64,000 nucleotides of DNA. Source: an uncultured bacterium. GTDB lineage: Bacteria > Cyanobacteriota > Cyanobacteriia > CAZCXK01. Below are positions 3,961 through 60,464 of this stretch, piece after piece; position 1 is the stretch's first letter, and each line of letters starts with the position of its first letter. Both the position numbers and the translations under genes were made by a program. The notes beneath the pieces were generated by a model. It searched no databases. It saw only the letters and a program-made list of their open reading frames with translations, and had not been told where the DNA came from. The stretch covers positions 703-64,702 of the forward strand of contig CAZCXK010000013.1 in assembly GCA_964502605.1 (NCBI GenBank), in the 5' to 3' direction.

Positions 3961-4199
3961 CAGGAGAAACCGAGTAACGCTTTCCTGATTTTGCTACCTT
4001 TCCTCCCCTTCACAATGAATAAAGTCGAGCTGATACAACAGAGCCTTGTGATTGGCAGACATTTGCCTGAATCAGTGCCCAATAGTCAGCCTGGGACAGA
4101 ATATGCGCGCCGCTTTGCAAAGGAGTCGCCATGCTTTCTATCTCATATTAATATCGGTAGACTCTCATCGTAGATTTCTTGAGAATCATCGTCAATAAA

Positions 4200-51732: not shown

Positions 51733-52000
51733 TGATGCTGAGAGTCCTAAATGGCTACAGAATAACCCTTGAGGGCAGGCGATCGCTCTCAATGATTTAG
51801 TCTTGGCGAAGCCGCCTTGATGAATCAACCCCGATGAACCAACCGAAGTCGATCTCTACAGTAACTAACTGATTGCCGACTGAAGAGGATGACCAAGAGC
51901 AAAGGCTCCGTAGTCGTGACTAAGACTTGATCAAATTCTCTGCTGCAAGTCCTTGAGATCACTCTTGAAATCACCCTAGATCACCACAGGTGTAGAACAA

Positions 52001-52924
52001 TTGGAATATAGCCGTATGGAAGGCATTCGCGAACGGGGACATCTGCTGACAGAGCAGGCTAATCCAGAGAGTCAGAATCTCGATCAGCTGACCTCCCTAG
52101 AACTCGTAGACTTATTTAATCAACAGGATGCCCATGTGATTAAGGCTGTCCATCAGGCTCGATGTGCCATTGCAGACGCCATTGATTGCACTGCGCAAGC
52201 GCTGAGTCGGGGGGGGCGATTGATTTATGTGGGTGCAGGCACGAGCGGGCGGCTAGGCGTGTTAGACGCAGCAGAATGCCCACCCACGTTTTGCACGCCG
52301 CCTGATTGGGTGCAGGGCATCGTTGCCGGCGGAGAAGCTGCTTTGATCCGCAGTTCGGAGGCGCTAGAAGATCGAGCCGATGATGGAGCAGCGGCGATCG
52401 CCCACCGTCAAATCACTCCCCATGATGTCGTCGTTGGCATTACGGCAGGCGGCACCACTCCCTATGTGCATGGAGCCTTACAGGCTGCTCGACAGCGGGG
52501 CGCAACGACAGTTTTTATTGCCTGCGTTCCGACTGATCAGGTCTCGGTTGAGGTAGATGTGGATATTCGTCTGCTAGTGGGGCCGGAAATTTTGGCGGGG
52601 TCTACTCGACTCAAGGCAGGTACGGCGACCAAGTTAGTGTTAAATACTCTCTCCACCGGGGCAATGGTAAAACTGGGAAAAGTCTACAGTAATCGAATGG
52701 TTGACGTTTCCGTTACCAACAGCAAACTCTATGATCGAGCCCTGCGGATTGTGCGCGATTTGACCGGGCTCGAACCAGCCGCTGCCGCAGGCTTGTTGGC
52801 TCAAAGCCAGTGCCGGGTAAAGCTCGCCTTACTGATGCACTGGACGGGGATCAGCGCGGAGGAGGGCGATCGCCGCTTGACCGACCACAACGGACACCTG
52901 CGAAACGCCATCTTCAACCAATAA
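52001..52924 (+). CDS. murQ: N-acetylmuramic acid 6-phosphate etherase
   Basis: SIS-domain motifs: LIYVGAGTSGRLGVLDAAECPPTF ... KAGTATKLVLN. Confidence 0.85.
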   Translation: MEYSRMEGIRERGHLLTEQANPESQNLDQLTSLELVDLFNQQDAHVIKAVHQARCAIADAIDCTAQALSRGGRLIYVGAGTSGRLGVLDAAECPPTFCTPPDWVQGIVAGGEAALIRSSEALEDRADDGAAAIAHRQITPHDVVVGITAGGTTPYVHGALQAARQRGATTVFIACVPTDQVSVEVDVDIRLLVGPEILAGSTRLKAGTATKLVLNTLSTGAMVKLGKVYSNRMVDVSVTNSKLYDRALRIVRDLTGLEPAAAAGLLAQSQCRVKLALLMHWTGISAEEGDRRLTDHNGHLRNAIFNQ

Positions 52925-53097
52925 GATATCTGAGAGGGGTCAATGCCCTAATTGACTCGCACTCGGCATCCATCTACTATCTAAACCAGCTTGAACGCTG
53001 ACTATGGCGCAGAATTACAAGCCTGACGAGCATTGCGAATCTTTTCTAAATTGAGTTTCGGGACACCCGTCCATCACCGATTTCAACTCAGGGGCAC

Positions 53098-54996
53098 ATG
53101 AACGTGAATCAAATACTGGGGGGGCGTTACCAAGTTGTCAAGGGGTTGGGGGCCTCAAGCCGGAGTAACACCTACTTGGTTGAAGATACAGGGCTATCGG
53201 GCCACCCAGAATGTATTGTGCGCCGACTCCCGCTGCCGGCACGCAGCCCCAGAGCTCTGAAGTTTATTCTGGTGTTGCTCAAAAAAAAGGCAGAGGCGCT
53301 TAAATATGCCGGAGCCCACGACCAAATCCCCAAAATCCTCGATTACTTTGAGGAAAATCAAAGTTTTTATCTGGTTGAAGAGTTAATTGTCGGCCAGCCT
53401 TTGAGTACAGAGTTGACCGCTGGGAAAGTTTTGCCAGAGTCAGTCGTGATTGATCTGATGCGGGATGTGCTGGAGATCTTGGTCGTGGTGCATAGCTGGG
53501 GCGTGGTGCACCGCAACATCAACCCTGCCAATCTGATTCGGCGGGCGTCAGATCAGCACCTCGTGCTCACCGGGTTTGGCATTTTTGAAGAAATTAGCAA
53601 TCAAATTGCGCGATCGCGACTTTCGGCTTCAGAACCCTTTCCGATCAATGGGGCAGCGGTGTATGCCCCCGATGAGCAGTTTCAGGGCAAGGTTCACTTC
53701 AATACCGACCTGTACGCGATCGGAATGATTGGCATCCAAGCGTTAACAGGGCTATCGATGGCCGAGCTGGTCGATTTGCGTCAGGCCAACGGCAAAACGA
53801 TGGGGCTCTTCTCGTGGTATCAATATGCTCAGATCGAGTCGCCGCTGGTCGCCATTCTCAATAAAATGGTGCATCCTGATGTGCAGCAGCGCTATCGCAA
53901 TGCCACCGAAGTGCTTGATGATCTCAAGTTTTTAACCGAGGGGGCGCTGGCCGTGCCGTCCTATTCGACTCCGACTGAGATCACCCCAACAGACGAACAA
54001 ACGCCCTCTCGACGCCCTCAAGGGCACTGGCTGATAGGCGGGGCGATCGCCACTCTTTTGGGGGCGGTTTTGGTGGGGCTGATGTATGCTCAAACACCGC
54101 AGCGGCTATTGGCGCAGTTTTTTTTGCAGCGGGCAGCGGCTCAAACCCACCAAGGTAATGACTCAGAGGCGATCGCCACCTACACTCGTGCGATTCAAAA
54201 CTATCCCAGCCTTGCGGCCTATCTCCAGCGGGGTCGCCTTTATCATCAGGCAGGGGATTGGCAGTCGGCGCAGGCTGATTTTAGCCGTGCCATTGAGTTG
54301 CAGCCCAAGGCCCCAGAGGCTTACCATTTTCGCGGCCAAATTCGCTATGAAGTCGGCGATCGCCAGGGGGCGCTCGAAGACTATACGCAAGCAATTCAGC
54401 TGGATCCAAACTCTGCACCGACCTATGTTAATCGCGGCAGCATCCGAGCAGAGCTAGGCGACGAAGAGGGGGCGCTAGCCGACTACACTCAGGCCATTCA
54501 GCAGGATCCGAGCCTGCCAGCAGCTTATCTCAATCGCTGTCTGACGCGATCCAATTTAGACAATCATCAAGGGGCGATTGAAGACTGTAATCAGGCGATT
54601 AGCCTCGATCCGACGTCAGTCCTAGCCTATCAAAATCGCGGTCTAGCTCGCCGCCGCTTAGGAGATATTAAAGGAGCCATTGAAGATTTAAATATTGCAA
54701 TTCGCCTCGATCCGAATGATGCAGATCCGTATTACAACCGGGGGCTGGCGCGGTTTGAATTGGGCGATCAAACTGGGGCGATCGCCGACTATGGCCAGGC
54801 AATTCAGCTTAATCCTGATCATGCGCTGGCATACTACGATCGCGGGATGACCTATCTCAATGGCGGCTATACCTCCGAGGCGATCGCCGACCTGCAACAA
54901 TCAGCCAGACTCTGTCTCGATGCCGTTAGAATCAGGTGCTATGAAGACGCTCAATATCAGCTCAAACAAATCCAGCCAGAGATCCAGTTAGAATAA
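53098..54996 (+). CDS. Ser/Thr protein kinase-like domain (predicted catalytically inactive pseudokinase) fused to a TPR repeat domain
   Basis: Kinase-fold landmarks are present but degenerate. Gly-loop LGASSRS. VAIK -> CIVRRL (Lys->Arg). HRDLKPxN -> HRNINPAN (Asp->Asn). DFG -> GFG. APE -> APD. C-terminal ~8 TPR units (AYxxRGxxxxxxGD...). Confidence 0.7.
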   Translation: MNVNQILGGRYQVVKGLGASSRSNTYLVEDTGLSGHPECIVRRLPLPARSPRALKFILVLLKKKAEALKYAGAHDQIPKILDYFEENQSFYLVEELIVGQPLSTELTAGKVLPESVVIDLMRDVLEILVVVHSWGVVHRNINPANLIRRASDQHLVLTGFGIFEEISNQIARSRLSASEPFPINGAAVYAPDEQFQGKVHFNTDLYAIGMIGIQALTGLSMAELVDLRQANGKTMGLFSWYQYAQIESPLVAILNKMVHPDVQQRYRNATEVLDDLKFLTEGALAVPSYSTPTEITPTDEQTPSRRPQGHWLIGGAIATLLGAVLVGLMYAQTPQRLLAQFFLQRAAAQTHQGNDSEAIATYTRAIQNYPSLAAYLQRGRLYHQAGDWQSAQADFSRAIELQPKAPEAYHFRGQIRYEVGDRQGALEDYTQAIQLDPNSAPTYVNRGSIRAELGDEEGALADYTQAIQQDPSLPAAYLNRCLTRSNLDNHQGAIEDCNQAISLDPTSVLAYQNRGLARRRLGDIKGAIEDLNIAIRLDPNDADPYYNRGLARFELGDQTGAIADYGQAIQLNPDHALAYYDRGMTYLNGGYTSEAIADLQQSARLCLDAVRIRCYEDAQYQLKQIQPEIQLE

Positions 54997-55052
54997 GCCG
55001 CAATCTGACGCAGGTTCACAAGCTAACCTGGGAGCATTCATCAGCTGCCAGC

Positions 55053-55256
55053 CTACTGATAGGCTAATACCTGACGACGACCACTACCGCGATGAACCGT
55101 TTGTCCAGAATATCCACCATTGCTTGCAATGGTTTCAACATTATCCGATGGGTTGAGATGCAATTTGGTAGAGTAAGAGGAACGGGCCCAATCGCCTACT
55201 GAGGCGGCAGGCAGCAAAAACGCAAGCAATAGCGCTGTAAAGATTGGAACGCGCAT
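55053..55256 (-). CDS. Small secreted hypothetical protein
   Basis: Signal peptide MRVPIFTALLLAFLLPAASVG. Confidence 0.35.
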   Translation of the reverse strand: MRVPIFTALLLAFLLPAASVGDWARSSYSTKLHLNPSDNVETIASNGGYSGQTVHRGSGRRQVLAYQ

Positions 55257-55427
55257 AGAGATACCTGAAAAATGACTGCTATTCAACTTTTACTGGCAAG
55301 AGGCTCCCGATCCGGAATGTCTAGCCAGCGTCAGCTATATGGCGGATATGCTCTCCTATATCTCTAGCGATGCTGCTTTAGCATTGTCTCTGTCTCTCTG
55401 CGTTCATTTCTGACATGCTCCTTTGTT

Positions 55428-56207
55428 ATGACTGACCCTTCGCTGCTGCCGCCCAGCCGACCAGTGCGTCGCGGCCCGATAAGTATATTTGCTGGGCCAA
55501 CATATCCGTTTCGGGCGTTGGCCTTGTTTTACAAGACTCCCAAACTGCGCGGGTATATTCTTTTGCCGATTGTACTCAATGTGCTTTTGGGCGGCGCTCT
55601 CTACACGGGGGCCCTCTATTTGGGCTGGCAAGGCATTGAACAGATTCTGGGAAATTTACCGACTTGGGCTGTTCCTCTAGAATTTTTGCTCCGGGGTCTG
55701 CTGATTATTTTGCTGCTATTTGTGACGGGGTTTATTTTTTTGCAGTTTGGCGTTTTGCTGGGGTCACCTTGGTATGGCAAGCTTTCCGAAGAGATTGAGA
55801 AACTGCAAACGGGGCGCTTGGTACTGGTCGAAATCAACCCTGTTGCCGAAATCAGTCGCGCTGTCAACTATGAGCTTAAAAAGTTGGTACTCTGGGTTAG
55901 CGTGGGGCTGCTGCTGCTATTAGCCAACTTCCTGCCAGGATTTGGCACCCTCATCGCAACAGTTGGGGGTTTTTCCTTGGCGGCTACAATCGCCTGCATG
56001 GATTTTCTAGATCCAGCTCTAGAGCGACGGCGGCTGCGATTTCGGCAAAAATTGGGGATGGTGCGGCGCGGGTTGCCTGCTAGTTTTACATTCGGCCTCG
56101 TCTGTTTTGGCTTATCTAGCATTCCGTTTCTCAATTTGCTGTCGATTCCTGTGTGTGTCGCGGCTGGAACACTCTTTTTTTGCGATCGCCTCAGCTCAGA
56201 GCCGTGA
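55428..56207 (+). CDS. EI24/CysZ-like (DUF540) integral membrane protein
   Basis: Four or more TM helices; N-terminal segment pattern ...FRALALFYKTPKLRGYILLPIVLNVLL resembles the CysZ/EI24 family. Confidence 0.45.
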   Translation: MTDPSLLPPSRPVRRGPISIFAGPTYPFRALALFYKTPKLRGYILLPIVLNVLLGGALYTGALYLGWQGIEQILGNLPTWAVPLEFLLRGLLIILLLFVTGFIFLQFGVLLGSPWYGKLSEEIEKLQTGRLVLVEINPVAEISRAVNYELKKLVLWVSVGLLLLLANFLPGFGTLIATVGGFSLAATIACMDFLDPALERRRLRFRQKLGMVRRGLPASFTFGLVCFGLSSIPFLNLLSIPVCVAAGTLFFCDRLSSEP

Positions 56208-56287
56208 GGGTGCATCCTCATGATCAAATAGTCTAAATGATCAAATAGTCTAAATTTCACGACGAGTCAGTCAGATACGGGTTTTCT

Positions 56288-57913
56288 ATGACAGCTTCTG
56301 GAGTGCAGCCGGTCTCCTACGCCATCGATTTTGGGACGAGCAATACTGTGATCACCCGATGGAATCTGGTGACTCAACTGCCCGAGACAATCGCCCTTGA
56401 GCACATTTCTCAGCAACTGGGAGATAATCCCGCGCTGGTGCCGAGCCTGATTTATATTGAAGATGCAGCTGATGAGCGCGTCATTGTGGGGCAGACCGTG
56501 CGCGATCGCGGCCTCGACGTAACGCAGGATACTCGTTTTTTTCGTAATATTAAACGCGGGATCGGGGCATCGGTGCAAGGGTTCGCGCCGGAGTTGGATG
56601 GTCGTATGGTGTCGTTTGAGCAGGCGGGCCATTGGTTTTTGGAGACGCTGATTCGTGAGTTACAGGCCCAAGATCCCCATCTGGATTCGCTGATCTTTAC
56701 GGTTCCAGTTGATAGCTTTGAACCCTATCGCCATTGGCTCAACCAAATCTGCACGCCATTGAACATTAGCCAAGTGCGGATGATTGATGAACCCACAGCG
56801 GCGGCCTTGGGATACGACCTAGCTGGGCGAGATGTCATTTTGGTGGTTGACTTTGGCGGCGGCACGCTCGATCTGTCCCTTGTTCGGCTGGATCATCAGG
56901 CGGCTTCGGCGGAGCAAGCCCCCTTGGGGTTTGTTCTTAAATGGGGGCAGAAGACGTTTGCGGCAGAGTCAGGGCAGCGCATTAAAACAGCAAACGTATT
57001 GGCGAAGGCCGGACAAAATTTGGGGGGAGCCGACATTGATGATTGGCTGGCAGAGGAGATGGCTGCAGCCCAGGGAATCGAAATCACGGCGCTGACATTG
57101 CGCCTAGCTGAGCGCCTCAAGATTCAGCTTTCGACACAGCGGAGTGCCACGGAAGCCTTTTTCAACGACGAAACGCTCGAAAGCTATGAATTGCAGCTTG
57201 ATCGCGATCGCTTCAATGCGATTTTGCATGAGCACCAATTTTTTGAACGACTGGATGAGTCGATGACTCAGGTGCTGCGGCAGGCTCGCCGTCAGGGGCT
57301 AGAAGCCTCGGATATTGATGCGGTGCTGCTCGTCGGGGGGACGTCGCAAATTCCAGCGGTGCGTGGCTGGGTGGAGCGATATTTTGAGGCGGCTAAGGTG
57401 TTTTCTGATCAGCCCTTTGAGGCGATCGCCCGTGGGGCTCTCCAGCTGAGTCAGGGCATTGATCTCAATGACTTTCTTTATCATGGCTATGGCATCCGCT
57501 ATTGGAACCGTCGCCATAACTGCCACGACTGGCATCCGATCATTCGGGAGGGTCAGCCGTATCCGATGGCAACTCCTGTGGAACTGGTGCTGGGGGCATC
57601 GGCAGATCAGCAGCCCAGTATTGAGCTGGTGATTGGTGAATTGGGGGCAGAATCGACCACAACAGAAGTGTATTTTGATGGCGATCGCCTGGTGACGCGG
57701 AGACGCTCAAGTGCAGCCTCGACCGTAACCTCACTCAATGACCAAGAGGGAGCCCGCAGTCTGGCCAAACTTGACCCGCCTGGCACTCCGGGAAGCGATC
57801 GCGTCAAACTGCTGTTTTGGGTTGATGCCGAACGGGTGTTGCGGGTCACCGTCGAAGATCTGTTGACGCACCAGACTCTGTTAGATAATCAGGCTGTTGC
57901 TCAACTTAGTTAG
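56288..57913 (+). CDS. Hsp70-family (DnaK-like) ATPase, short non-canonical paralogue lacking a canonical lid
   Basis: Actin-fold motifs AIDFGTSNTV (phosphate 1), IDEPTAAALGYDL, VVDFGGGTLDLSLV (phosphate 2), LLVGGTSQIPAVRGWV (adenosine). Only ~150 aa follow the NBD. Confidence 0.7.
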   Translation: MTASGVQPVSYAIDFGTSNTVITRWNLVTQLPETIALEHISQQLGDNPALVPSLIYIEDAADERVIVGQTVRDRGLDVTQDTRFFRNIKRGIGASVQGFAPELDGRMVSFEQAGHWFLETLIRELQAQDPHLDSLIFTVPVDSFEPYRHWLNQICTPLNISQVRMIDEPTAAALGYDLAGRDVILVVDFGGGTLDLSLVRLDHQAASAEQAPLGFVLKWGQKTFAAESGQRIKTANVLAKAGQNLGGADIDDWLAEEMAAAQGIEITALTLRLAERLKIQLSTQRSATEAFFNDETLESYELQLDRDRFNAILHEHQFFERLDESMTQVLRQARRQGLEASDIDAVLLVGGTSQIPAVRGWVERYFEAAKVFSDQPFEAIARGALQLSQGIDLNDFLYHGYGIRYWNRRHNCHDWHPIIREGQPYPMATPVELVLGASADQQPSIELVIGELGAESTTTEVYFDGDRLVTRRRSSAASTVTSLNDQEGARSLAKLDPPGTPGSDRVKLLFWVDAERVLRVTVEDLLTHQTLLDNQAVAQLS

Positions 57914-59435: not shown

Positions 59436-60464
59436 ATGATACACCATAGTCTTTGGTTGATTTTGATTCGGATGCGACCCTCAGTGCCTGTTGTCAGCCT
59501 ATTGGGGGCGATCGCCCCGATTCCATTCATGTCTACTGCGGCCTGGTCAGCGATCGCAGATCCTATTTGCGCCGAGCACGATGTTAGCTCGCATCAATTT
59601 TGGGCATATCACTACCTCGACAGGGTCGCATCAGCAAATTGTTCTTTTGCAGTCGCCGGTGTTGATGCCCCTTTAGCTCAAGGATGGGGTCTCCTGTCTG
59701 GTGATGGGTCTGAGCTGGAGGTCTGGACGCACCGAGCCCCCAACACCGATGACGTTGGAGAGAGCGCACACGCTCAAGCCCCTGAGACTGCAGCCACGGA
59801 TGCCCAATCTTCTAACTCGGAGGATAGCCAGACTACTCGTCAGTCTACTGCCCAACCCCCGACCCCAGAGTCGCTCAACCTCGACTCAGAACTGGTCGAT
59901 GATAGCCCAGTTTTTCAACGGTGGCTCGACGAGATTCCAGATGTGGCAGCTGATATTCGGCGCGATCCCAGCTTTCGGACGCGGCTGCGATTTGGCTATG
60001 CTGAGGTGCTCTCAACCGATGATGGGAGCGGATTTTTACTTGGAGTCGAAGATGTGTTTGTGGGCAACACCCGCCTCACTCTTGCCGCTGATTATCAGGC
60101 AACCTTTGGGGGCGATCGCCAATCCTATGGTGCTGAAGCTCGCTATTATCTCGCTCCGTTAGGCGGCTATGTCAACGTGGCTCCAGTGGTTGGCTATCGT
60201 AGTCTTGAAACCAGGGGCGATCGCACTGAGGGACTGAGTCTAGGAGTGCGGCTGATGATCGTCCCATCTAGAACTGGAGCTGCTGATTTAGCCGTGAGCC
60301 AGCGCTGGATTGCTCCTAGGGATCGCGATCAAGCCAGCCTCACCTCTCTCTCGCTGGGCTATGCCATCACTCGAAATTGGCGACTGTCAACTGAATTTCA
60401 GTGGCAGCGAACTCCTGACGATGACAGCACTCGACTGGGCGCAGCATTAGAATGGATGCCCTGA
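59436..60464 (+). CDS. Hypothetical secreted protein, possible outer-membrane beta-barrel
   Basis: N-terminal hydrophobic segment and an acidic low-complexity linker. The C-terminal ~200 aa have alternating hydrophobic patterning and a C-terminal aromatic residue pattern (...LEWMP). Confidence 0.4.
   Translation: MIHHSLWLILIRMRPSVPVVSLLGAIAPIPFMSTAAWSAIADPICAEHDVSSHQFWAYHYLDRVASANCSFAVAGVDAPLAQGWGLLSGDGSELEVWTHRAPNTDDVGESAHAQAPETAATDAQSSNSEDSQTTRQSTAQPPTPESLNLDSELVDDSPVFQRWLDEIPDVAADIRRDPSFRTRLRFGYAEVLSTDDGSGFLLGVEDVFVGNTRLTLAADYQATFGGDRQSYGAEARYYLAPLGGYVNVAPVVGYRSLETRGDRTEGLSLGVRLMIVPSRTGAADLAVSQRWIAPRDRDQASLTSLSLGYAITRNWRLSTEFQWQRTPDDDSTRLGAALEWMP

What the first reader, a model, noticed from the sequence alone, without database searches (positions are those of the whole stretch)
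53098..54996. TPR-fused Ser/Thr kinase fold with all key catalytic residues substituted (predicted pseudokinase)
The N-terminal ~280 aa follow the Hanks-kinase layout, but every catalytic landmark is altered. The Gly-rich loop is degenerate (LGASSRS). The beta3 Lys is Arg (CIVRRL). The catalytic-loop Asp is Asn (HRNINPAN). DFG is GFG. APE is APD. This combination argues for a non-catalytic scaffold or allosteric regulator rather than sequencing noise. The C-terminal half is ~8 TPR repeats. Bacterial pseudokinases are rarely characterised, and a TPR-coupled one next to murQ (cell-wall recycling) is a good candidate for a signalling adaptor.
Basis: seen in the sequence. Interest (0 to 1): 0.55.

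Follow-up and report, generated by a model that had tools for sequence, protein, structure and literature searches.

The report
Conserved cyanobacterial TPR receptor pseudokinase
This gene encodes a membrane-spanning protein whose inner half is a Ser/Thr-kinase fold that has lost its catalytic residues and whose outer half is an eight-repeat TPR binding module; it belongs to a conserved family of filamentous cyanobacteria that recent catalogues of bacterial pseudokinases do not list, so it is most likely a non-catalytic signalling receptor or scaffold, not a broken gene.

Summary
The ORF (53098..54996 +, 632 aa) is real. Its N-terminal 283 aa are a Hanks-type kinase fold. The glycine-rich loop is degenerate. 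The beta3 Lys is Arg, the HRD Asp is Asn and DFG is GFG. "APE is APD" is a one-residue mis-registration, because the Glu (E193) is kept. Forty-two relatives besides the window protein (loci and cluster representatives) form one clade in a neighbour-joining tree. They share the alphaC Glu-to-Lys change, a lost Gly-loop and a hypervariable HRD-Asp position. They keep the structural core, and dN/dS on the kinase-like domain is 0.07-0.08. All 54 full-length family proteins examined have the TM helix, and 53 of 54 have exactly four Cys after it, which suggests an extracytoplasmic TPR stapled by disulfides. murQ adjacency holds only in the two closest genomes. No neighbour is universal, but canonical kinases (5 loci) and sigF (3 contexts) recur. 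Verdict: a genuine, selected pseudokinase with receptor-like topology. It represents a new family-level variant of a known kind. The cell-wall link is unsupported.

The parts
53098..54996 (+). Complete CDS, 632 aa: pseudokinase, linker, TM helix, 8 TPRs and a cap
   Evidence: ORF list. Pfam Pkinase plus TPR. AlphaFold2 model with mean pLDDT 84.7. Coordinates checked.
53098..53946 (+). Hanks-type kinase-like (pseudokinase) domain, aa 1-283
   Evidence: phmmer to Stk1, StkP and PknB structures at E about 3e-15. Foldseek to Stk1 9ymt/4eqm at TMt 0.77. dN/dS 0.07-0.08 in unsaturated orthologue pairs.
53146..53166 (+). Degenerate Gly-rich loop LGASSRS (aa 17-23)
   Evidence: Aligned to LGGGGMS of Stk1. 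G20 and F22 are lost family-wide but are 93% and 87% conserved in canonical paralogues.
53212..53229 (+). Beta3 strand CIVRRL, with R42 in place of the VAIK Lys
   Evidence: The position is K or R across the family, so a basic residue is kept.
53275..53301 (+). AlphaC segment LLKKKAEAL. K64 replaces the alphaC Glu (the family signature). L68, the presumed regulatory-spine residue, is kept.
   Evidence: K64 is Lys in 41 of 43 clade members and Glu in 100% of 164 canonical relatives. The alphaC-Lys class is monophyletic.
53509..53532 (+). Catalytic loop HRNINPAN: HRD Asp is N140, catalytic-loop Lys is N142, H138 and N145 are kept
   Evidence: Position 140 across the family is N14/C8/S8/R7/D3 of 43 and is 100% D in canonical relatives.
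53572..53580 (+). GFG in place of DFG (G159). F160 and G161 are kept.
   Evidence: Most members have GFG or GLG, and one subclade (L017-L023) keeps DFG.
53665..53676 (+). A-P-D-E: the APE Glu is retained as E193
   Evidence: HMMER alignment of PDEQ to SPEQ. E193 is 88% conserved in the family, and its usual partner R265 is 93% conserved.
53947..54027 (+). Disordered, Ser/Thr/Pro-rich juxtamembrane linker (aa 284-310) ending in a basic cluster (SRRPQGH)
   Evidence: pLDDT below 50 for aa 284-317. The S+T+P fraction is 0.35 in linkers versus 0.17 in the kinase-like part and 0.12 in the TPR part, over 41 members. dN/dS 0.23.
54028..54090 (+). Single transmembrane helix WLIGGAIATLLGAVLVGLMYA (aa 311-331), followed by the conserved P334-Q335 (invariant in alignment A3)
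   Evidence: Present in 54 of 54 family members (mean Kyte-Doolittle about 2.2). K+R counts are 185 upstream versus 102 downstream. In the model, helix 318-351 runs on into TPR1.
54109..54972 (+). Eight TPRs plus a C-terminal capping helix (aa 338-625), probably extracytoplasmic
   Evidence: Pfam TPR_1/2/11. pLDDT above 90. Foldseek to CTPR8 at TMt 0.86 and to the OGT TPR 1w3b.
54538..54588 (+). Invariant Cys pair C481 and C497, on helix A and helix B of TPR5
   Evidence: Invariant in 24/24 and 30/30 sequences. The two residues lie nearly symmetrically about the helix hairpin, so a disulfide is inferred, not measured.
54913..54939 (+). Invariant Cys pair C606 and C614 in the C-terminal cap motif C-x7-C-Y-x-D-A-Q-Y
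   Evidence: Invariant. 53 of 54 members have exactly 4 Cys after the TM helix. The canonical kinase P0080 shares this cap and this pair.
52001..52924 (+). Context only: murQ-like SIS-domain gene upstream (173-nt gap). It is not part of the feature.
   Evidence: Pfam SIS/GKRP. It is adjacent only in L001 and L002.
56288..57913 (+). Context only: atypical 541-aa Hsp70/actin-fold ATPase gene downstream
   Evidence: Weak HSP70 match (98 bits). NCBIfam scores are far below the DnaK and HscA cut-offs. It is also downstream of the orthologue in L001, L002 and L024.

Best explanation
The gene encodes a bitopic membrane protein that works as a non-catalytic, receptor-like signalling subunit.

Shown:
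- The N-terminal domain has the Hanks kinase fold.
- It lacks the Gly-rich loop, the beta3-Lys/alphaC-Glu pair (here Arg and Lys), the HRD Asp, the catalytic-loop Lys and the DFG Asp.
- It keeps the fold-stabilising residues: the HRD His, the DFG Phe, L68 in alphaC, the alphaF Asp, the APE Glu and its Arg partner.
- This state is ancestral to a monophyletic cyanobacterial family and is under strong purifying selection.
- Every family member has one TM helix, and after it eight TPRs with four invariant cysteines.

Inferred:
- The kinase-like domain is cytoplasmic. There is no signal peptide, and basic residues are enriched on its side of the TM helix.
- The TPR superhelix lies in the periplasm or the thylakoid lumen and is stapled by two disulfides.
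- The TPR groove binds an extracytoplasmic protein or peptide.
- That binding changes the oligomeric or conformational state across the membrane.
- The catalytically dead but well-folded kinase-like domain, together with its Ser/Thr/Pro-rich juxtamembrane linker, then acts on one of the many canonical paralogous Ser/Thr kinases. It could be an allosteric partner, a docking scaffold or a phospho-acceptor. This follows HER3-like or MviN-like logic, which I take from my own knowledge and from the review PMC12599244.

The biological process it controls is unknown. Weak genomic hints point to envelope or cell-surface functions.
For: - Fold and motif placement.
- Family-wide loss of catalytic residues with a retained core. 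Position 140 is N/C/S/R/G, so no catalytic base is conserved. The activation-segment Thr T186 is also lost.
- Single origin: 41 of 42 alphaC-Lys domains fall in one clade of 43 in an NJ tree.
- Purifying selection: dN/dS on the kinase-like domain is 0.070 (L001/L002) and 0.082 (L003/L005).
- Architecture: TM helix in 54/54 members, exactly 4 Cys after the TM helix in 53/54, and K+R 185 upstream versus 102 downstream. C481, C497, C606 and C614 are invariant.
- Origin from an active receptor kinase: P0080 has canonical K/E/HRD/DFG, the same TM plus TPR layout and the same C-terminal Cys cap.
- Paralogues in the same clade carry a TM helix plus an SH3b-type ectodomain (Pfam PF08239).
- Partner-kinase hint: an orthologous, fully canonical kinase of about 365 aa (66-72% mutual identity) lies within about 1 kb in L081, L086 and L087, in different arrangements. 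Other canonical kinases lie within about 1 kb in L012 and L082.
- Linker composition.
Against: - No biochemical data exist. A basic residue is conserved at beta3, N145 is mostly kept, one subclade keeps DFG, and no bulky residue obviously fills the adenine pocket. Nucleotide binding or atypical catalysis is therefore not excluded.
- Topology is inferred, and the positive-inside bias is only about 1.8:1.
- The 64-kb window contains no second kinase, FHA or PP2C gene.
- Adjacency to active kinases is seen in only about 5 of about 19 independent contexts and is at best marginally above chance for kinase-rich cyanobacteria.
- No universal neighbour exists.
Confidence: 0.6

Rival explanations
1. 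It is an atypical but active enzyme. The charge-inverted cleft (Arg/Lys at beta3, Lys at alphaC, no Asp) still binds a nucleotide, possibly without metal. The domain then catalyses phosphotransfer or another reaction, such as AMPylation or glutamylation as in SelO and SidJ, using non-canonical residues.
For: A basic residue is always kept at beta3, and K64 is nearly invariant. N145 is mostly kept, and the subclade L017-L023 keeps DFG. No aromatic residue obviously plugs the ATP pocket. Purifying selection on the domain is very strong. The review PMC12599244 documents kinase-fold proteins once called pseudokinases that perform other chemistry (SelO, SidJ), and a DLHK family with Arg residues facing the nucleotide site.
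Against: The catalytic-base position varies freely among orthologues (N/C/S/R/G), which is not expected for any conserved chemistry at that site. The only family-specific constrained residues found are L61 and K64, and no new invariant acidic or nucleophilic residue appears. The Gly-loop and the activation-segment Thr are also lost.
Confidence: 0.12
2. One reading: it is a cell-wall or peptidoglycan-recycling signalling adaptor functionally coupled to MurQ, a PknB/MviN-style envelope regulator.
For: murQ is directly upstream in the window, L001 and L002. A PBP2-like transpeptidase is directly upstream in L008. Class-A PBPs lie 1-2 genes downstream in L081 and L083, with PBP2 and an M23 peptidase nearby. 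A Mur ligase lies 4.8 kb away in L082. An extracytoplasmic sensor domain fits an envelope role.
Against: murQ linkage vanishes outside the closest relatives. Cell-wall genes appear in roughly 4-6 of about 19 contexts against a rough expectation of about 8% per 12-kb window. That category was chosen after the fact. The unbiased batch annotation found Transpeptidase in only 1 of 86 neighbour ORFs. TPRs are not known peptidoglycan-binding modules, unlike PASTA, SH3b or LysM. The promoter and terminator scan gives no evidence for or against co-transcription with murQ.
Confidence: 0.15
3. It is a decaying or strain-specific inactivated kinase gene, or a sequencing artefact, with no function of its own.
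For: None beyond the degenerate motifs themselves. One orthologue (L012, a 3.7x-coverage MAG) carries a frameshift.
Against: There are intact ORFs in 23 of 24 species-level genomes. About 25 clusters at 90% identity and about 20 at 50% identity share the same architecture. dN/dS is 0.06-0.12 over both domains. The structural residues and four cysteines are invariant.
Confidence: 0.02

Closest known systems
Canonical cyanobacterial TM-TPR Ser/Thr kinases (class 'cbSTKII-TPR' of Zhang et al. 2007, PMC2176072), for example P0080 from Cyanobacteria bacterium UBA11162
   Same: The kinase-fold N-terminus is 40-45% identical. The layout (one TM helix, then a TPR C-terminus) is the same, and P0080 even shares the C-terminal C-x7-C-Y-x-D-A-Q-Y cap.
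   Different: P0080 and the about 164 canonical relatives keep GxGxxG, the Lys-Glu pair, HRD and DFG. The window protein and its clade have lost them and have Lys at the alphaC Glu position. P0080 has only one of the two Cys pairs.
PknB/Stk1/StkP receptor Ser/Thr kinases (kinase, TM helix, extracellular PASTA repeats)
   Same: These are the best sequence and fold matches for the N-terminal domain (E about 3e-15, TMt 0.66-0.77). The topology is the same: cytoplasmic kinase fold, juxtamembrane linker, one TM helix and an extracytoplasmic repeat domain.
   Different: They are catalytically active, and their ectodomain is PASTA (peptidoglycan-binding), not TPR. The NCBIfam PknB_PASTA_kin score is 68.8 against a cut-off of 450.
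MviN (MurJ) pseudokinase domain of Mycobacterium tuberculosis (family ActPs3), and EssB/YukC of the type VIIb secretion system
   Same: Both are membrane-associated bacterial Hanks-fold pseudokinases with all three catalytic motifs degraded, and both act as scaffolds or phospho-dependent docking modules (PMC12599244).
   Different: ActPs3 has a 40-residue activation-loop deletion, aromatic residues that fill the ATP site and a fusion to a flippase. EssB/YukC has a truncated activation loop and a T7SS context. The window protein has a full-length activation segment, no occluding aromatics identified, a TPR ectodomain and no such genomic context.
CP1 pseudokinase family (cyanobacteria and proteobacteria) of the bacterial STK atlas
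   Same: Of the seven catalogued bacterial pseudokinase families, this is the one described as primarily annotated in cyanobacteria.
   Different: CP1 lacks TM regions, is always linked to a COG3899 ATPase domain and is only about 40% pseudokinase. The window family has a TM helix plus TPRs and lacks the catalytic set almost throughout.
HER3/ErbB3 (animals), plant BSKs, and PknG (functional analogies recalled from my own knowledge)
   Same: HER3 is a single-pass receptor with HRN in place of HRD and a substituted alphaC Glu, and it acts as an allosteric activator of a kinase partner. BSKs and PknG combine a kinase fold with C-terminal TPRs. Pfam gives a weak TPR_BSK1_C match, and Foldseek hits PknG 2pzi.
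   Different: HER3 keeps the Gly-loop, the beta3 Lys and DFG, and it binds ATP. BSK and PknG TPRs are cytosolic and lie on the same side as the kinase domain. Homology does not go beyond the shared folds.

Membership tests
Hanks-type (eukaryotic-like) protein kinase superfamily, Pfam PF00069 | Bilobal kinase fold with a significant profile match | tested here: met
   Pkinase scores 66.9 bits against a cut-off of 31.7. phmmer to Stk1, StkP and PknB. Foldseek TMt 0.77 to Stk1.
Catalytically competent Hanks kinase | GxGxxG loop, beta3 Lys with alphaC Glu salt bridge, HRD Asp and DFG Asp | tested here: not met
   The window has LGASSRS, R42, K64, N140 and G159. The same losses run through the family.
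Bacterial Ser/Thr pseudokinase (operational definition of the STK atlas and PMC12599244) | Kinase fold lacking one or more of VAIK-Lys, HRD-Asp and DFG-Asp, conserved as a family | tested here: met
   All three are substituted in the window protein. The clade is monophyletic and conserved. dN/dS is 0.07-0.08.
Bacterial Ser/Thr pseudokinase | No phosphotransfer activity, and absent or altered nucleotide binding | not testable with these tools
   This needs a purified domain, a thermal-shift assay and a radiolabel assay.
CP1 pseudokinase family | No TM region, and covalent linkage to a COG3899 ATPase (often also PAS or FhlA domains) | tested here: not met
   A TM helix is present in 54/54 members. 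The only other domains are TPRs. The family definition comes from PMC12599244.
ActPs3 (MviN-type) pseudokinases | Activation-loop deletion of about 40 residues and linkage to MurJ/MviN | tested here: not met
   The activation segment aa 159-193 is present. There is no flippase domain.
PknB/Stk1 PASTA receptor kinases | Extracellular PASTA repeats, and NCBIfam NF033483 at 450 bits or more | tested here: not met
   The score is 68.8 bits and covers the kinase domain only. No PASTA repeats are found.
Tetratricopeptide repeat proteins | Tandem 34-residue helix-turn-helix repeats forming a superhelix | tested here: met
   TPR_1 165 bits, TPR_2 153 bits and TPR_11 155 bits. The model has 8 helix pairs at pLDDT above 90. 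CTPR8 matches at TMt 0.86.
   The window protein has every one of these features and falls inside the clade.

The most novel reading that the evidence does not exclude
This is the founding example of an unrecognised cyanobacterial receptor-pseudokinase family. Its active-site cleft has been charge-inverted, from Lys/Glu/Asp/Asp to Arg-or-Lys/Lys/neutral/neutral. The cleft would therefore bind a nucleotide or another anionic ligand without metal. The family would couple a disulfide-stapled periplasmic TPR sensor to a dedicated soluble partner kinase, and through it to a SigF-controlled cell-surface or motility programme in filamentous cyanobacteria.
Probability: 0.15. Interest if true: 0.65.

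Novelty: new variant of a known kind. Interest (0 to 1): 0.42.

Why it matters
Few bacterial Hanks-fold pseudokinases have been studied experimentally; the review read here discusses MviN, EssB/YukC, SidJ and SelO. The two 2025 surveys list seven families. None of them is a cyanobacterial TM-TPR family. The one family they describe as primarily cyanobacterial (CP1) is cytosolic and has a different architecture.

This family is compact and well delimited, and it has a clear sequence signature: alphaC Glu replaced by Lys, a degenerate catalytic set, a retained regulatory core, a TM helix and a Cys-stapled TPR ectodomain. It also has an identifiable active ancestor type (P0080-like). In one subclade there is a candidate partner kinase next door.

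That combination makes it a tractable model for how bacteria reuse a dead kinase domain for transmembrane signalling. It also offers a way into the large and poorly understood Ser/Thr kinase networks of filamentous cyanobacteria. Pseudokinases as a class, and kinase-TPR fusions in cyanobacteria, are already known, so a specialist would find this useful but not startling.

Tried and rejected
1. **murQ linkage.** I tested it by tblastn of the window neighbours against 24 orthologous loci. It is conserved only in L001 and L002, so I rejected it as functional evidence.
2. **A universal conserved neighbour.** I clustered flanking ORFs all against all, read pre-annotated contexts for 10 family members and batch-annotated 86 neighbour ORFs with Pfam. 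No universal neighbour exists.
3. **A partner kinase, FHA or PP2C gene in the window.** An HMM scan of the six-frame translation finds only this one kinase-like domain. Pfam annotation of the ±15 kb flank shows unrelated housekeeping genes.
4. **Hsp70 as a TPR client.** The window, L001, L002 and L024 carry an atypical 541-aa Hsp70-fold gene downstream, and L009 and L080 carry grpE-dnaK-dnaJ upstream. These are two different proteins. A cytosolic Hsp70 could not reach a periplasmic TPR domain. I left this as an unexplained lead.
5. **Promoter and terminator scan of 51800-56400.** Counts equal the shuffled expectation, so it is uninformative.
6. **Membership in published pseudokinase families.** CP1, ActPs1-3, GLW, DLHK and DYD were rejected on architecture and motifs. 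SpkE (slr1443) has no TPR (class 'cbSTKI-other'), so it is not a member.
7. **Cys-Cys distances.** I could not measure them because model coordinates are not exposed. I inferred pairing from helix positions only.
8. **dN/dS between the window and L001/L002.** Synonymous sites are saturated, so I used the closer pairs L001/L002 and L003/L005 instead.
9. **First protein search with the single sequence.** It returned only 36 hits and one truncated orthologue. The genome-contig scan and the profile search were needed to find the family.
Full report
**1. The observation.** The ORF is at 53098..54996 on the + strand and encodes 632 aa, with an ATG start and a TAA stop. Pfam finds a protein-kinase domain at aa 72-273 (E 2.5e-18, 66.9 bits against a 31.7-bit cut-off) and seven TPR stretches. 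Against solved structures, the first 300 aa match the kinase domains of S. aureus Stk1/PknB, S. pneumoniae StkP and M. tuberculosis PknB/PknA (best E 2.8e-15). The printed alignments fix the motif register:
- The Gly-rich loop is LGASSRS where Stk1 has LGGGGMS.
- R42 sits at the VAIK Lys.
- HRNINPAN replaces HRDIKPQN. The catalytic Asp and the catalytic-loop Lys are both Asn, and the terminal Asn is kept.
- GFG replaces DFG.

The sequence is A-P-D-E, and E193 aligns with the APE Glu.

**2. Is it strain-specific decay?** No. The nearest database proteins are only 40-48% identical, and most are canonical kinases. A scan of one genome per species returned 24 full-length relatives from filamentous cyanobacteria, including Elainellaceae (67-69% identical), Leptolyngbyaceae, Lusitaniella, Spirulinaceae, ESFC-1, Jaaginema and Oscillatoria. 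In all 23 with intact ORFs:
- The Gly-rich loop is degenerate and the alphaC Glu is Lys.
- The HRD Asp is N, R, S, C or G, with one exception (L023).
- DFG is GFG or GLG in most, and one subclade keeps DFG.
- The beta3 position is Lys or Arg.

I then compared 43 clade members with 164 canonical relatives.
- Family-specific constrained residues: only L61 and K64.
- Lost in the family: G20, F22, D140, the residue before DFG, V163, the activation-segment Thr (T186) and P199.
- Shared with the canonical kinases: the fold core, including H138, P143, G161, Y189, E193, D204, G209, R265 and Y266.

By standard kinase anatomy (my own mapping), the HRD His, the DFG Phe (F160, at least 90% conserved), L68 and the alphaF Asp are the regulatory-spine residues and their anchor. 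So the fold and its active-like scaffold are conserved while the chemistry is not. Free variation at the catalytic-base position is the strongest single argument against phosphotransfer.

In an NJ tree of 259 kinase domains, 41 of the 42 domains with Lys at the alphaC position fall in one clade of 43. That indicates a single origin. dN/dS on the kinase-like domain is 0.070 (L001/L002) and 0.082 (L003/L005). It is 0.06-0.12 on the TPR half and about 0.23 on the linker. The protein is therefore under strong purifying selection.

**3. Architecture.** An AlphaFold2 model built on a 30-sequence family alignment has mean pLDDT 84.7. It shows:
- a kinase fold at aa 1-283;
- a disordered stretch at aa 284-317;
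- a long helix at aa 318-351 that carries the TM segment straight into the first TPR;
- eight helix pairs and a capping helix at pLDDT above 90.

Foldseek matches the C-terminal half to an 8-repeat consensus TPR (TMt 0.86, rmsd 2.8 A) and to the O-GlcNAc transferase TPR superhelix. It matches the N-terminal half to Stk1 (TMt 0.77) and PknB, and PknG (kinase plus TPR) also appears.

All 54 family proteins examined have one strong hydrophobic helix. K+R counts are 185 in the 15 residues before it and 102 in the 15 after it. In 53 of 54 proteins there are exactly four Cys after the helix, whereas the number before it varies from 0 to 6. C481, C497, C606 and C614 are invariant. Each pair sits symmetrically about a helix hairpin: helices A and B of TPR5, and the last TPR helix with the cap. 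From this I infer two disulfide staples, and therefore an extracytoplasmic TPR domain (periplasm or thylakoid lumen). The juxtamembrane linker is Ser/Thr/Pro-rich, at 0.35 against 0.17 and 0.12 for the two domains.

**4. Origin.** P0080 is a metagenomic cyanobacterial protein with fully canonical K/E/HRD/DFG. It has the same TM-TPR layout and the same C-terminal C-x7-C-Y-x-D-A-Q-Y cap. The family therefore most likely arose from an active TM-TPR receptor kinase. Other paralogues in the clade carry a TM helix plus SH3b-type C-terminal domains, which fits an N-in/C-out receptor topology for the whole group.

**5. Genomic context.** The window gene lies between a murQ-like SIS gene (173 nt upstream) and an EI24/CysZ-family gene, followed by an atypical 541-aa Hsp70-fold gene. 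Further out are TamB, DUF3110, SulP, HisIE, a rubrerythrin-domain gene, Ppx/GppA and a ParA-like gene. There is no second kinase domain in the 64 kb. Promoter and terminator matches are at chance level.

murQ, DUF3110 and TamB synteny holds only in L001 and L002. Across roughly 19 independent contexts no neighbour is universal. Three themes recur sporadically.
- **Canonical kinase genes.** They lie within about 1 kb in L081, L086 and L087. Those three share an orthologous soluble kinase of about 365 aa, 66-72% identical, kept adjacent despite different position and orientation. Other canonical kinases lie within about 1 kb in L012 and L082.
- **sigF.** It scores above the NCBIfam NF005644 cut-off and lies 1.3-3.1 kb away in three otherwise non-syntenic contexts: L009/L080, L012 and L082/L088.
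- **Cell-wall enzymes.** These are MurQ here, a PBP2-like gene in L008 and class-A PBPs in L081 and L083. They occur at a frequency not clearly above expectation.

**6. Mechanism.** The best-supported reading is a receptor-like pseudokinase. An extracytoplasmic TPR groove binds a protein or peptide. The signal crosses through the single helix, which the model makes continuous with TPR1. The dead but well-folded kinase-like domain and its Ser/Thr-rich linker then serve as an allosteric partner, scaffold or phospho-acceptor for a canonical paralogous kinase. The fold, the residue losses, the conservation, the selection and the domain order are shown. The topology, the disulfides, the ligand and the partner are inferred.

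The main rival is an atypical enzyme or ligand binder, because the cleft has become basic (Arg/Lys at beta3, Lys at alphaC, no Asp) and is not obviously occluded. I give this rival about 0.12. Decay of the gene is effectively excluded.

**7. Comparison with what is known.** Kinase-TPR fusions in cyanobacteria were catalogued in 2007 (PMC2176072). That survey excluded proteins lacking catalytic motifs and noted SpkE as inactive, but SpkE has no TPR. The 2025 atlas of bacterial STKs and its companion review recognise seven pseudokinase families: ActPs1-3, GLW, DLHK, DYD and CP1. They list TPR-linked families only outside cyanobacteria: Strep1, Strep2, PknG, GN-NS1 and Myxo1. [quoted passage not shown] Public records name family members only "tetratricopeptide repeat protein" or "serine/threonine protein kinase".

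I therefore rate this as a new family-level variant of a known kind (bacterial Hanks-fold pseudokinases). It works like PknB-type receptors in topology, and like MviN or HER3 in using a dead kinase domain.

**8. Verdict.** Interest is moderate (0.42). The family is clean, conserved and apparently undescribed, and it has testable features. However, pseudokinases and kinase-TPR fusions are both established concepts, and the biological role remains unknown.

Noticed in passing
L080:11016-11765, L009:10829-11575, L012:1935-2666 (-), L082:3591-4388, L088:2884-3651: A sigF gene (NCBIfam NF005644, 330-380 bits against a cut-off of 261) lies 1.3-3.1 kb from the pseudokinase gene in three otherwise non-syntenic contexts, with different intervening genes and orientations. 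The window itself has no sigF. This may be a relic of ancestral linkage or a functional coupling to the SigF regulon.
   Followed up: partly
L081:3796-4893 (+), L086:7586-8689 (-), L087:6893-7993 (-): An orthologous, fully canonical soluble Ser/Thr kinase of about 365 aa (66-72% mutual identity, all motifs intact) is kept within about 1 kb of the pseudokinase gene in one subclade despite rearrangement. It is a candidate partner kinase. L012:6914-7909 and L082:8800-10704 carry other canonical kinases nearby.
   Followed up: partly
window 56288-57913 (+); also L001:8332-10014, L002:8319-10001, L024:3339-4964: An atypical 541-aa Hsp70/actin-fold ATPase matches only part of the HSP70 profile, at 98 bits, far below the DnaK and HscA cut-offs. 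It is conserved (63-71% identical) downstream of the pseudokinase in two subclades. Separately, L009 and L080 have a genuine grpE-dnaK-dnaJ operon divergently upstream. Its function and any link are unexplained.
   Followed up: partly
Proteins P0037-P0084, for example P0053 (1396 aa), P0058 and P0113: Many of the strongest hits are cyanobacterial proteins with two or three tandem kinase domains, in which one or more domains are degenerate. P0053 has three domains, all with HRN or HHQ and GFG, GFS or GFV. Tandem kinase-pseudokinase proteins seem common in this clade.
   Followed up: no
L012:3941-5846 (Leptolyngbyaceae cyanobacterium SL_7_1, contig coverage 3.7x): The orthologue is split by a frameshift: the ORF ends at 4192 and the match continues to 5777. 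This is why the public protein P0019 is N-terminally truncated. It is probably an assembly error in a low-coverage MAG, not a pseudogene.
   Followed up: no
L015:6001-7962 and L088:6001-7851 (both on scaffold KB904821.1 of filamentous cyanobacterium ESFC-1): One genome carries two diverged paralogues of the family (HLN with GLG, and HRS with DFA). The pseudokinase family has therefore itself duplicated and diversified.
   Followed up: no
window 59436-60464 (+): A 342-aa ORF between the rubrerythrin-domain gene and the Ppx/GppA gene has no Pfam match at E <= 1e-5.
   Followed up: no
PMC2176072, Table 1 (Trichodesmium Tery_4781 and Tery_4782): The 2007 survey lists two adjacent TPR-bearing STK genes in Trichodesmium, one of them flagged as deviating from the canonical motifs. 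This may be another adjacent pseudokinase-kinase pair. The sequences could not be fetched here.
   Followed up: no
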